From assembly GCA_963699155.1 (NCBI GenBank), contig OY969414.1, positions 2,251,757-2,315,756 of the forward strand: DNA of 64,000 nucleotides, read 5' to 3'. Both the position numbers and the translations under genes were made by a program. The stretch comes from an uncultured Chlamydiales bacterium (GTDB lineage: Bacteria > Chlamydiota > Chlamydiia > Chlamydiales > JAAKFR01). This document shows, piece by piece, positions 20,340-20,705 of this stretch. Numbering within the stretch: the first letter of the stretch is position 1; every line of letters starts with the position of its first letter. The notes beneath the pieces were generated by a model that was not told where the DNA came from, did not search any database, and saw nothing but the letters and a program-made list of their open reading frames with translations.

Positions 20340-20705
20340 AAACGTGCGCGGGAATGAATGGCCGGTATACCACGTTTCCAACTTGAGTTCGAGGCTAAGG
20401 CCCCCTGCCCAAAGGTCGATCGCGCATTCTCTGGCCAAGCCACGCTGTGGACTTACAGAGAAGGTATCCCGATGAACAACCGCTGCCGGTAACGGTCCTA
20501 GCAAAAGTTGCTAGCAACGACCCATTCATTACCACTTCTCCCCTCACTCGGGCTACTGAGAAGGAACTTCTGTGAACCTCCAGTAGAGTGTCGCAAGCTG
20601 GGCACTCTTTTAGAGACCGAAGCCTCTTGGGAAACACCGTCCCGAGTGCCCTCATACCGGGTGCTTTTGCCCGAGGGGATGCGGAAGCACGTTCCCGCAT
20701 TCACC
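20340..20705 (-). ncRNA. Candidate large structured ncRNA of unknown family
   Basis: About 12 helices, 5'/3' pairing, UUCG tetraloop, G-U wobbles favouring the minus strand, 7-bp pseudoknot, U-tract at the 3' end; GC-rich between AT-rich flanks. Confidence 0.75.

What the first reader, a model, noticed from the sequence alone, without database searches (positions are those of the whole stretch)
20340..20705. Candidate novel ~365-nt pseudoknotted ncRNA
Seen: a GC-rich, gene-free island between AT-rich flanks that is densely base-paired. Complementary segments (plus coordinates): closing helix 20348-54/20692-98; a 9-bp helix 20353-61/20522-30 enclosing 20414-18/20518-22, 20427-33/20456-62, 20479-96 and 20498-514; a second domain 20539-45/20673-79 and 20545-52/20641-48 enclosing hairpins 20553-86, 20585-608 and 20612-27 (AGAGGC-UUCG-GUCUCU on the minus strand). 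A 7-bp pair 20362-68/20654-60 links the two domains as a pseudoknot. G-U wobbles, the UUCG loop and a terminal U-tract point to the minus strand. Known: it lacks the RNase P GAGGAAAGUCC, tmRNA/tRNA-like ends, the SRP loop and the riboswitch signatures I can recall. Inference: a stand-alone ribozyme-sized RNA of a class I do not recognise.
Basis: partly seen in the sequence, partly recalled or inferred. Interest (0 to 1): 0.88.

Follow-up and report, generated by a model that had tools for sequence, protein, structure and literature searches.

The report
New large structured RNA in Chlamydiales
This is a real gene for a roughly 365-base, intricately folded non-coding RNA of a previously undescribed class, found only in one family of environmental chlamydiae and apparently switched on by a stress-type sigma factor that occurs in the same family only.

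Summary
The finding holds. Window ~20701-20337 (minus strand) is a single-copy gene for a ~365-nt structured RNA. No Rfam 15 family matches it or 17 homologues. RNase P, tmRNA and SRP RNAs lie elsewhere. Covariance models find it in 22 of 29 genomes of its own family. They find it in 0 of 144 and 0 of 136 genomes of other chlamydial families. On 25 sequences, 51 hand-placed pairs are 89.9% paired, against 36-52% when slid. 36 pairs show compensatory changes, and 0 of 500 shuffles reach that.

The core is an H-type pseudoknot: a 5' hairpin loop pairs with the 3' end.

Contigs from two soil metatranscriptomes, 100% identical, cover only the RNA. The gene sits between fabF and nudix, which abut in other families.

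Its near-invariant promoter (TGAACATTTT-N13-GTCTAA) has the ECF-sigma form. A 173-aa ECF sigma shows the same family-only distribution and is missing from the two complete genomes that lack the RNA.

Function is untested. The most likely reading is a trans-acting effector RNA of that sigma.

The parts
20728..20737 (-). -35-type element TGAACA followed by a T-tract (TGAACATTTT)
   Evidence: 13 bases are invariant in the first 6 genera. TGAAC plus the T-tract was read in 23 of 24 visible promoters. The motif GAACATTT-N12-15-GTCTAA gave 20 matches in 29 family genomes, 18 of them at the RNA gene, against 4 control matches. It matches the ECF promoter form tGAAACnTTTt described in PMC5758882 (passages).
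20709..20714 (-). -10-type element GTCTAA (CGTC-like)
   Evidence: GTC.AA is invariant in alignment A1. The spacer to TGAACA is 15-16 bp. TGAACA-N16-18-GTCTAA is unique in the 2.4-Mb genome.
20337..20701 (-). The RNA itself, about 365 nt. The 5' end is inferred at about 7 nt after the -10 element; the 3' end is inferred at the U-tract.
   Evidence: Homologues were found. Covariation is shown. RNA-library contigs cover 20359-20691 and 20466-20670 at 100% identity, with no cover on the flanks. The ends were not mapped.
20680..20699 (-). 5' hairpin HA (UGCGG 20695-99 / CCGCA 20680-84). Its loop carries the 5' strand of P1 (ACGUGC, 20687-92).
   Evidence: 3 of 5 pairs have compensatory changes in 25 sequences, for example AAUGG/CCAUU in G025 and GACGG/CCGUC in G008.
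20342..20347 (-). 3' strand of P1 (GCACGU). It pairs with the HA loop to form an H-type pseudoknot.
   Evidence: 96.7% of cells are paired. 2 of 6 pairs have compensatory changes (CGUGU/ACACG in G021 and G008; G-C/A-U at the outer pair). 4 pairs never vary.
20539..20679 (-). Domain I. Closing helices are UCCCCU/AGGGGA (20674-79/20539-44) and GGGC/GCCC (20669-72/20550-53). Inside are a three-way junction (20644-48/20603-07), the GGGA..UCCC hairpin (20629-43) and the UUCG hairpin (20612-27).
   Evidence: The closing helices have 5 of 6 and 4 of 4 pairs with compensatory changes. The junction helix covaries by eye: GGGCACUC/GAGUGCCC, AGCGGUU/AACCGCU, UGCCG/CGGCA. The domain is reduced to one hairpin in G015, G011 and G009.
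20348..20535 (-). Long helix P-long (20522-35 / 20348-61), which encloses domain II and abuts P1.
Evidence: The first 5 pairs are 90.2% paired and 3 have compensatory changes. Per-sequence helices of 8-15 bp were read.
20363..20514 (-). Domain II. It holds hairpin hp1 (20498-514), helix Px (20485-94/20373-82), an arm (20427-62), the CUUA-loop hairpin (20391-404) and the conserved single strands GGCGGUU, UUUGGGCA, UGAAC and GYAUAC (20363-72).
   Evidence: Compensatory changes: Px 8 of 10 pairs, hp1 5 of 5, CUUA hairpin 5 of 6. Model R2, built from this part, finds 22 of 29 family genomes.
20336..20342 (-). U-tract directly after P1, an intrinsic-terminator-like end
   Evidence: Read from the sequence. 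8 of 20 homologues have GCACG followed by a U-run. Others carry a separate GC hairpin plus U-run a few bases later.
19846..20301 (-). Nudix hydrolase gene, downstream on the same strand
   Evidence: PF00293, E = 8.7e-25. A Nudix gene lies downstream on the same strand in 10 of 19 homologous loci.
24275..25522 (-). fabF, the ancestral upstream neighbour
   Evidence: TIGR03150, 553 bits against a cut-off of 494, located. fabF lies upstream on the same strand in 18 of the 18 homologous loci that have upstream sequence.
20790..23981 (+). Insertion that separates fabF from the RNA in this genome only. It holds a 463-aa ORF with no family match and a DDE transposase at 23001-23981.
   Evidence: Pfam and NCBIfam give no hit for the 463-aa ORF. 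PF01609 matches the transposase at 1.5e-19.

Best explanation
This is a single-copy gene for a stable, about 365-nt non-coding RNA of a new family, confined to one family of environmental Chlamydiales.

Shown:
- The RNA lies on the minus strand. It is conserved with abundant compensatory base changes.
- It folds into two domains around an H-type pseudoknot. The loop of a 5' hairpin pairs with the last bases of the RNA. That helix stacks on a long helix that closes domain II. The hairpin abuts the helix that closes domain I.
- Domain I is dispensable, being reduced in three species. Domain II and the pseudoknot are universal.
- The gene was inserted between fabF and nudix, which abut in other chlamydial families. 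It carries its own promoter and terminator.
- RNA-library contigs cover the RNA but not its neighbours.

Inferred, about 55%: the promoter (TGAACATTTT, 15-16 bp, nGTCTAA) is an ECF-sigma promoter read by the 173-aa ECF sigma. That sigma is likewise confined to this family and is missing from the two complete genomes that lack the RNA.

Inferred, about 30%: the RNA acts in trans as the main effector of that sigma's response. Its fixed tertiary fold would bind a protein or small ligand rather than base-pair with mRNAs.

It is not a cis-acting leader.
For: Identity and novelty:
- Rfam gives no match.
- RNase P (241 bits), tmRNA (146 bits) and SRP (54 bits) are found elsewhere in the genome.
- The element is single-copy.
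- There is no conserved ORF.

Structure:
- On 20 sequences, 92.3% of cells pair against 36-52% when slid, and 34 of 51 pairs have compensatory changes.
- On 25 sequences, 89.9% pair and 36 of 51 pairs have compensatory changes. 0 of 500 shuffles reach any of the five measures.
- G-U pairs are frequent (for example 16 of 25 at one pair), which fixes the strand.

Distribution:
- Model R1 hits 19 of 29 family genomes, one of them judged false.
- Model R2 hits 22 of 29.
- A diverged copy was read at the syntenic site in G008.
- R2 finds 0 of 144 genomes of 46 other families. It finds 0 of 136 in a phylum sample, including 27 genomes of about 1.1 Mb.

Stand-alone gene:
- 8 of 19 loci have an opposite-strand gene immediately downstream.
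- The promoter and terminators are conserved.
- Contigs from two RNA-library studies, 333 nt and 205 nt, lie wholly inside the RNA. There is no cover on 19800-20358 or 20692-21300.

Insertion:
- In 27 loci of other families no gap longer than 135 nt follows fabF. In 22 of them a same-strand ORF of about 140 aa starts within 13 nt.

ECF link:
- The promoter form matches the passages in PMC5758882: an AAC motif, a T-tract next to the -35 element, and a CGTC -10 element.
- The motif sits almost only at this gene: 18 of 20 matches in 29 genomes. It is unique in G000.
- G000 encodes a 173-aa ECF sigma (TIGR02937, 117 bits).
- That sigma is found in 23 of 29 family genomes and in 0 of 68 genomes of other families.
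- In G026 and G019 only the ~555-aa and ~265-aa sigmas are found. These two are among the four high-quality genomes without a model hit. At least G026 truly lacks the RNA: its fabF is followed directly by nudix. Of the other two, G008 has a diverged copy and G020 has a contig break at fabF.
Against: - No transcription start, 3' end or strand was mapped. The RNA-library evidence is assembled contigs, which cannot show strand or exclude DNA carry-over.
- The MFE is not better than shuffles (z = -1.5).
- The pseudoknot helix P1 rests on few events: 4 of its 6 pairs never vary.
- The ECF link is circumstantial. No such motif lies upstream of the ECF sigma gene in any of 12 genomes, so there is no autoregulation signature. 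Relaxed motifs are not enriched in G000.
- Co-occurrence has mismatches in 6 genomes. G001, G006 and G011 have the RNA but no sigma hit. G007, G010 and G020 have the sigma but no RNA hit. Five of the six are incomplete, at 61-91%; the sixth, G020, has a contig break at fabF.
- Related genomes share features by descent, so only the two co-losses count as independent events.
- A primary-sigma promoter with an activator site is not excluded.
- Nothing here shows what the RNA binds or does.
Confidence: 0.6

Rival explanations
1. It is a cis-regulatory leader, either a riboswitch or an attenuator, of the downstream nudix gene. The structured RNA would sense a ligand, and its P-long/P1 helix plus U-tract would decide whether transcription reads through into nudix.
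For: The layout is promoter, structured RNA, terminator, then a co-oriented Nudix gene in 10 of 19 loci and in the window. The gap to the Nudix start is only 34-76 nt in G002, G024, G004, G028 and G012. In G002 the ATG follows the terminator's U-run directly, so nudix probably depends on read-through. From memory, not tested here: riboswitches that control Nudix genes are known (ykkC subtype 2c).
Against: 8 of 19 loci have an opposite-strand gene next, yet the RNA there is fully conserved. At about 365 nt, with two domains, it is far larger than known riboswitches. In other families nudix is expressed without it, directly behind fabF. The RNA-library contigs stop before nudix.
Confidence: 0.12
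2. It is a polymerase-directed regulatory RNA, analogous to 6S RNA or Ms1 but dedicated to the ECF sigma. The RNA would bind and hold the sigma or its holoenzyme, supplying the anti-sigma function that no neighbouring gene provides.
For: The ECF sigma gene has no co-transcribed anti-sigma candidate in at least 8 of 11 loci; a convergent ~355-aa gene follows it. The RNA and the sigma share their distribution and two co-losses. No 6S RNA is detectable in this order: RF00013 gives 0 of 61.
Against: The fold is a branched two-domain pseudoknot, not the long irregular hairpin with a central bubble that defines 6S RNA. RF00013 detects only 5 of 14 control genomes, so its silence says little. No binding evidence of any kind was obtained.
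Confidence: 0.08
3. It is a ribozyme: a catalytic RNA whose pseudoknotted core forms an active site.
For: It has the size, a pseudoknotted multi-helix core and many invariant unpaired nucleotides (GGCGGUU, GYAUAC, UGAAC, AAG linker).
Against: It matches no known ribozyme family. The RNA-library contig runs uninterrupted over 333 nt, so there is no sign of a cleavage site. It is dispensable in at least two complete genomes.
Confidence: 0.07
4. It is a decaying remnant of a mobile or selfish element and has no present function.
For: It is an insertion specific to one lineage, and a transposase lies nearby in this genome.
Against: It is single-copy and syntenic across at least 14 genera. Compensatory changes preserve the helices. 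The promoter is near-invariant. It appears to be expressed. The transposase insertion is specific to G000.
Confidence: 0.03

Closest known systems
Orphan large structured bacterial ncRNAs (OLE, GOLLD, ROOL, HEARO, raiA classes in Rfam)
   Same: Several hundred nucleotides long, with many covarying helices, pseudoknots and invariant unpaired nucleotides. The distribution is narrow and lineage-specific, and the function cannot be read from the sequence.
   Different: There is no match to any of these, or to any of the 4227 Rfam models, even at E<=10, for the window and for 17 homologues. The host lineage is different (Chlamydiales). It has its own ECF-type promoter.
ECF/sigma-E-dependent small RNAs (MicA, RybB, MicL of enterobacteria; recalled, not tested here)
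   Same: A non-coding RNA gene behind a promoter of ECF form. It may be the RNA arm of an ECF stress response.
   Different: Those RNAs are short, loosely structured and pair with mRNAs through Hfq. This one is about 365 nt with a fixed two-domain pseudoknotted fold. Here the motif marks essentially one gene per genome.
6S RNA (RF00013) / Ms1
   Same: An abundant, stand-alone, non-coding RNA that may be tied to a sigma factor.
   Different: RF00013 does not match. The architecture is branched and pseudoknotted, not a rod with a central bubble.
Bacterial RNase P RNA type A (RF00010) and tmRNA (RF00023)
   Same: Similar length, conserved 5' and 3' ends joined by long-range pairing, and pseudoknots.
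   Different: The genome's true RNase P RNA (241 bits) and tmRNA (146 bits) lie elsewhere. Neither model touches this locus, even at E<=10.
Riboswitch leaders of Nudix genes (ykkC subtype 2c; recalled)
   Same: A structured RNA and terminator upstream of a Nudix gene in about half of the loci.
   Different: Three to four times larger. Conserved where no co-oriented gene follows, in 8 of 19 loci. No Rfam match.

Membership tests
Any Rfam 15 family (4227 models) | Score at or above the family's gathering threshold | tested here: not met
   The only hit in the window is a tRNA at 55266-55337. At E<=10 there is nothing inside 20337-20706. Nothing lies at the RNA in 17 homologous loci.
RNase P RNA, bacterial type A (RF00010) | Match to the covariance model (P4 pseudoknot, conserved regions) | tested here: not met
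   The genome's single match, 241 bits, is at G000:C1:806666-807020, not here.
tmRNA (RF00023) | tRNA-like ends and a tag reading frame, as scored by the model | tested here: not met
   The 146-bit match is at G000:C1:1340142-1340596.
6S RNA (RF00013) | Model match; long closed hairpin with a central bubble | tested here: not met
   No match at E<=1 in the genome or at this locus. The covariation-supported fold is branched. The model rings in only 5 of 14 control genomes, so it is a weak test.
ECF-sigma-dependent gene | Promoter with an AAC-containing -35 element, a short spacer and a CGT/GTC-type -10 element | tested here: met
   TGAACA, a 15-16 bp spacer, then nGTCTAA, near-invariant across genera. 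The form is as described in PMC5758882.
ECF-sigma-dependent gene | A cognate ECF sigma is present in the same genomes | tested here: met
   A 173-aa ECF sigma is found in 23 of 29 family genomes and in 0 of 68 genomes outside the family. It is absent where the RNA is absent, in G026 and G019.
ECF-sigma-dependent gene | Transcription by that sigma's holoenzyme starting at this promoter | not testable with these tools
   This needs in vitro transcription or a sigma induction or deletion experiment.
Riboswitch / cis-acting leader | Consistently followed by a co-oriented regulated gene | tested here: not met
   Co-oriented Nudix downstream in 10 of 19 loci, an opposite-strand gene next in 8 of 19, and one locus too short to tell.
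Dispersed repeat / MITE | Many copies per genome | tested here: not met
   One copy in G000. One model match per genome in the family.
Protein-coding gene | An ORF conserved among homologues | tested here: not met
   Across the 20 sequences examined, the longest ORFs are 34-101 aa and differ in strand and frame. The 101-aa ORF of G000 has no Pfam match.

The most novel reading that the evidence does not exclude
The family-specific ECF sigma and this RNA form a dedicated two-part module. The sigma's regulon would be essentially this one promoter, so the whole output of the signalling pathway is a folded RNA. That RNA then acts as the effector, or feeds back on the sigma as an RNA anti-sigma. 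This wiring has not been described for ECF sigmas.
Probability: 0.3. Interest if true: 0.9.

Novelty: categorically new. Interest (0 to 1): 0.78.

Why it matters
New classes of large, intricately folded bacterial RNAs are rare. Each one so far has opened a line of work, as RNase P, OLE and ROOL/GOLLD did.

This one comes with unusually good handles:
- 25 diverse sequences with strong covariation;
- a defined minimal core, since domain I can be dropped;
- evidence of expression in soil;
- a precise evolutionary origin, an insertion between two abutting genes;
- a candidate dedicated regulator.

Chlamydiae are thought to have few regulators and few known non-coding RNAs. An ECF sigma whose consensus promoter marks a single RNA gene would be a new kind of signalling output. 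It can be tested directly in a heterologous reporter system.

Tried and rejected
- Thermodynamic significance of the fold is not better than shuffles on either strand.
- The simple promoter and terminator scan missed both the ECF-type promoter and the terminator.
- BLAST in relatives found only 5 of 60 genomes, so covariance models were needed.
- The pattern scans of genome and metagenome collections returned 12 loci. Two are chance matches with no RNA behind them: L021, labelled Phycisphaerae, and L024. Eight only duplicate loci already held (L014-L017, L020, L023) or later re-fetched (L018 = L028, L019 = L026). Only L022 and L025 add new sequence.
- Three R1 hits were judged false. G011:C7 reads like coding sequence. 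G041 is a 45-nt partial match. G073 lies antisense inside a 235-aa ORF.
- R2 with filters off, run on 27 fabF loci of other families, gave nothing below E = 0.5.
- The 6S search of the order gave 0 of 61, which is uninformative.
- AAAATGAACATTTT as a palindromic operator: the left arm is not conserved in G003, G012, G016, G004, G001, G022, G025 or G009, so the -35 plus T-tract reading is preferred.
- A search for an ECF regulon in G000 with relaxed motifs gave counts at or below the controls.
- No autoregulatory motif lies upstream of the sigma gene in any of 12 genomes.
- Earlier findings of this scan hold nothing by place, by sequence or by words.
- Five literature searches found no description of this RNA. 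The one structured-RNA survey that included a chlamydia used Chlamydia pecorum, a family in which this RNA was not found.
- No cover was seen on the flanks 19800-20358 and 20692-21300 in runs X1 and X2. Contigs cannot prove absence.
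Full report
**1. What is in the sequence**

GC is 0.525-0.555 across the stretch. It falls to 0.26 at 20700-20899. On the other side, in the Nudix gene, GC is 0.445-0.48. The genome mean is 0.475.

Folding energy alone does not set the region apart. The minus strand folds at -145.3 kcal/mol, z = -1.50, and 7 of 100 shuffles fold as well. 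The plus strand gives z = -1.24.

No Rfam 15 family matches. The gathering-score scan of the whole window finds only a tRNA at 55266-55337. The permissive scan of 20100-20950 at E<=10 returns two chance hits outside the element.

The genome is a single 2.4-Mb contig. The records of its relatives are labelled Chlamydiales. It holds RNase P RNA (241 bits), tmRNA (146 bits) and SRP RNA (54 bits) at other places. The element is single-copy.

**2. Homologues**

BLAST found partial matches, covering the 5' ~90 nt and the 3' ~85 nt, in 5 of 60 related genomes, all in the window's own family f1.

Their alignment showed a 13-base invariant block upstream, AAATGAACATTTT, and a conserved GTCnAA.

A pattern built on these returned 8 loci from the species-genome collection and 4 from metagenomes. 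Two are chance matches (L021, L024). Several duplicate loci already in hand.

Two covariance models were built.
- R1 covers the 5' 82 positions. It hits 19 of 29 family genomes. One hit, G011:C7, I judge false because it reads like coding sequence.
- R2 covers the 3' 96 positions and was built from 20 sequences. It hits 22 of 29 family genomes, 17 of the 21 of high quality, one match per genome.

A strongly diverged copy sits at the syntenic site in G008.

Outside the family:
- R2 finds 0 of 144 genomes of 46 other families of the order.
- R2 finds 0 of 136 genomes in a phylum-wide sample. That sample includes 27 genomes of about 1.1 Mb from one family.
- R1 gave two weak outside hits. One is a 45-nt partial match. 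The other lies antisense inside a 235-aa ORF.

A permissive Rfam scan of 17 homologous loci again found nothing at the RNA.

The 20 sequences examined share no ORF.

**3. Structure**

I placed helices by hand on MAFFT alignments and had them counted.

| Measure | 20 sequences | 25 sequences |
|---|---|---|
| Pairs placed | 51, in 9 helices | 51 |
| Cells forming standard pairs | 92.3% | 89.9% |
| Same, with 3' partners slid 1-3 columns | 36-52% | 36-52% |
| Pairs with changes on both sides | 34 | 36 |
| Shuffles reaching any of the five measures | 0 of 500 | 0 of 500 |

The architecture, in window coordinates:
- **HA**: a 5' hairpin, 20695-99/20680-84.
- **P1**: the HA loop (20687-92) pairs with the last bases of the RNA (20342-47). 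HA and P1 together form an H-type pseudoknot.
- **Domain I closing helices**: HA is followed without a gap by 20674-79/20539-44, then GGGC/GCCC at 20669-72/20550-53.
- **P-long**: P1 is preceded without a gap by the 3' strand of a long helix, 20522-35/20348-61, which encloses domain II.
- **Domain I interior**: a three-way junction with an invariant GGGA-N7-UCCC hairpin and a variable hairpin.
- **Domain II**:
  - a covarying hairpin at 20498-514;
  - a 10-bp helix, Px, at 20485-94/20373-82, with 8 of 10 pairs compensatory;
  - an arm at 20427-62;
  - a CUUA-loop hairpin at 20391-404;
  - the conserved single strands GGCGGUU, UUUGGGCA, UGAAC and GYAUAC.

Support for the pseudoknot is real but thin.
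- HA has 3 of 5 pairs with compensatory changes. Examples are AAUGG/CCAUU in G025, GACGG/CCGUC in G008, and UACGG/CCGUA in G005.
- P1 has 2 of 6. Examples are CGUGU/ACACG in G021 and G008.
- Four P1 pairs never vary.

Domain I shrinks to a single hairpin in G015, G011 and G009. The core is therefore the pseudoknot plus domain II.

Frequent G-U pairs, the promoter and the terminators all place the RNA on the minus strand.

- Five are conserved.
- Five are complementary here but not elsewhere, or clash with covarying helices.
- Two remain open.

The observation check field lists them one by one.

**4. Expression**

An index search with window 19800-21300 found two soil metatranscriptome runs from two studies.

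Each run holds one contig laid on the stretch. The contigs are 333 nt (20359-20691, depth 13) and 205 nt (20466-20670, depth 3.8). Both are 100% identical to the window, lie wholly inside the predicted RNA and have no loose ends. Nothing lies on the flanking genes.

This is what an abundant discrete RNA would give. Contigs, however, cannot show strand or ends, and they cannot exclude DNA in the library.

**5. Context and origin**

fabF lies upstream on the same strand in 18 of the 18 homologous loci that have upstream sequence. In 16 it is directly adjacent; in 2 one ORF intervenes.

A Nudix gene follows on the same strand in 10 of 19 loci. An opposite-strand gene follows in 8. One locus is too short to tell.

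In the window the Nudix gene is 19846-20301. fabF is at 24275-25522. A 463-aa ORF with no family match and a DDE transposase separate fabF from the RNA.

I examined 27 fabF loci from other families. None has a non-coding gap longer than 135 nt after fabF. In 22 of them a same-strand ORF of about 140 aa starts within 13 nt. I did not run these ORFs against Pfam, and my start positions are approximate.

Within the family, G026 (1.3 Mb, one contig) has fabF followed directly by nudix.

The RNA gene, with its own promoter and terminator, is therefore an insertion between two abutting genes. It dates to the ancestor of this family and was later lost at least once.

Because 8 loci have no co-oriented gene downstream, the RNA is not primarily a leader.

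**6. The promoter and a sigma factor**

Across the promoters I could read, the conserved core is TGAACATTTT, then 12-13 variable bases, then nGTCTAA. The A-rich left arm that makes it look palindromic in the window is not conserved.

Passages of PMC5758882 (read with 'find') describe ECF-sigma promoters as having three features:
- for the Bacillus sigma-W, -V, -M and -X group, a T-tract next to the -35 element (tGAAACnTTTt);
- a CGTC or CGTA -10 element, with spacers of 14-17 bp.

The motif here fits that form.

G000 encodes three sigma-70-family proteins, in reading frames of 552, 275 and 177 aa. The smallest is an ECF sigma, modelled as 173 aa from the ATG (TIGR02937, 117 bits against a cut-off of 43).

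That protein is found in 23 of 29 family genomes. It is found in 0 of 68 genomes of 46 other families. Its close relatives in the large protein collection carry only chlamydial labels. Identity then drops to 43% or less.

In G026 and G019 the ECF model hits only the ~555-aa and ~265-aa sigmas. G026 lacks the RNA outright, and in G019 neither model finds it.

The six genomes where the RNA and the sigma disagree are incomplete (61-91%) or, in G020, broken at fabF.

The motif GAACATTT-N12-15-GTCTAA gives 20 matches in the 29 genomes. 18 of them lie at the RNA gene, and the reversed control pattern gives 4. The stricter form is unique in G000.

Points against:
- No such motif lies upstream of the sigma gene in any of 12 genomes.
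- Relaxed motifs are not enriched in G000.
- Genomes of one family share features by descent, so only the two co-losses are independent.

The sigma gene has no anti-sigma candidate behind it in at least 8 of 11 loci.

**7. Reading**

Shown: a new, expressed, covarying, pseudoknotted RNA family with a defined origin.

Inferred at about 55%: it is transcribed by the family's own ECF sigma.

Inferred at about 30%: it acts in trans as the main effector of that sigma's response, through a fixed tertiary fold that binds a protein or ligand.

The rivals are scored in their own section:
- a nudix attenuator or riboswitch;
- an RNA that holds the sigma or polymerase;
- a ribozyme;
- a functionless remnant.

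**8. Literature**

Five searches returned no description of this RNA. I saw search listings only, except as follows.

For PMC8632094 I saw the outline, one passage and one supplement passage. Its only chlamydial genome was Chlamydia pecorum.

The library does not hold most subscription journals, so a prior report cannot be excluded.

Noticed in passing
G000:C1:434603-435121 (outside the window; locus L102 1441-1959): A 173-aa ECF sigma factor restricted to this chlamydial family: 23 of 29 family genomes, 0 of 68 outside. It sits between a divergent enolase-like gene and a convergent ~355-aa GTPase-like gene, with no anti-sigma candidate next to it.
   Followed up: partly
window 20790-23981: A genome-specific insertion between fabF and the RNA. 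It holds a 463-aa ORF with no Pfam or NCBIfam match, a 124-aa ORF on the other strand, and a DDE_Tnp_1 transposase at 23001-23981.
   Followed up: partly
window 17033-20301: The gene order is inositol-monophosphatase family, Glu/Leu/Phe/Val dehydrogenase, inorganic pyrophosphatase, Nudix. From memory, not checked here, this is the same order as next to fabF in Chlamydia.
   Followed up: no
L099 (G011) 150-237; L043 (G015) upstream of 1580: Two species carry an extra 45-70-nt hairpin between the promoter and the first conserved hairpin of the RNA, so the 5' leader is variable.
   Followed up: no
G023:C151:2213-2239 and G027:C2:8081-8108: These are the only two matches to the promoter motif that are not at the RNA gene. 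They could be further targets of the sigma or chance; the control pattern gave 4 matches.
   Followed up: no
L004 (G002) around 1180-1220: The Nudix ATG follows the U-run of the RNA's terminator hairpin directly. This leaves no room for a promoter or ribosome-binding site, so nudix there probably depends on read-through from the RNA promoter.
   Followed up: no
window 55266-55337: A tRNA gene (66.6 bits), the only Rfam match in the window.
   Followed up: no
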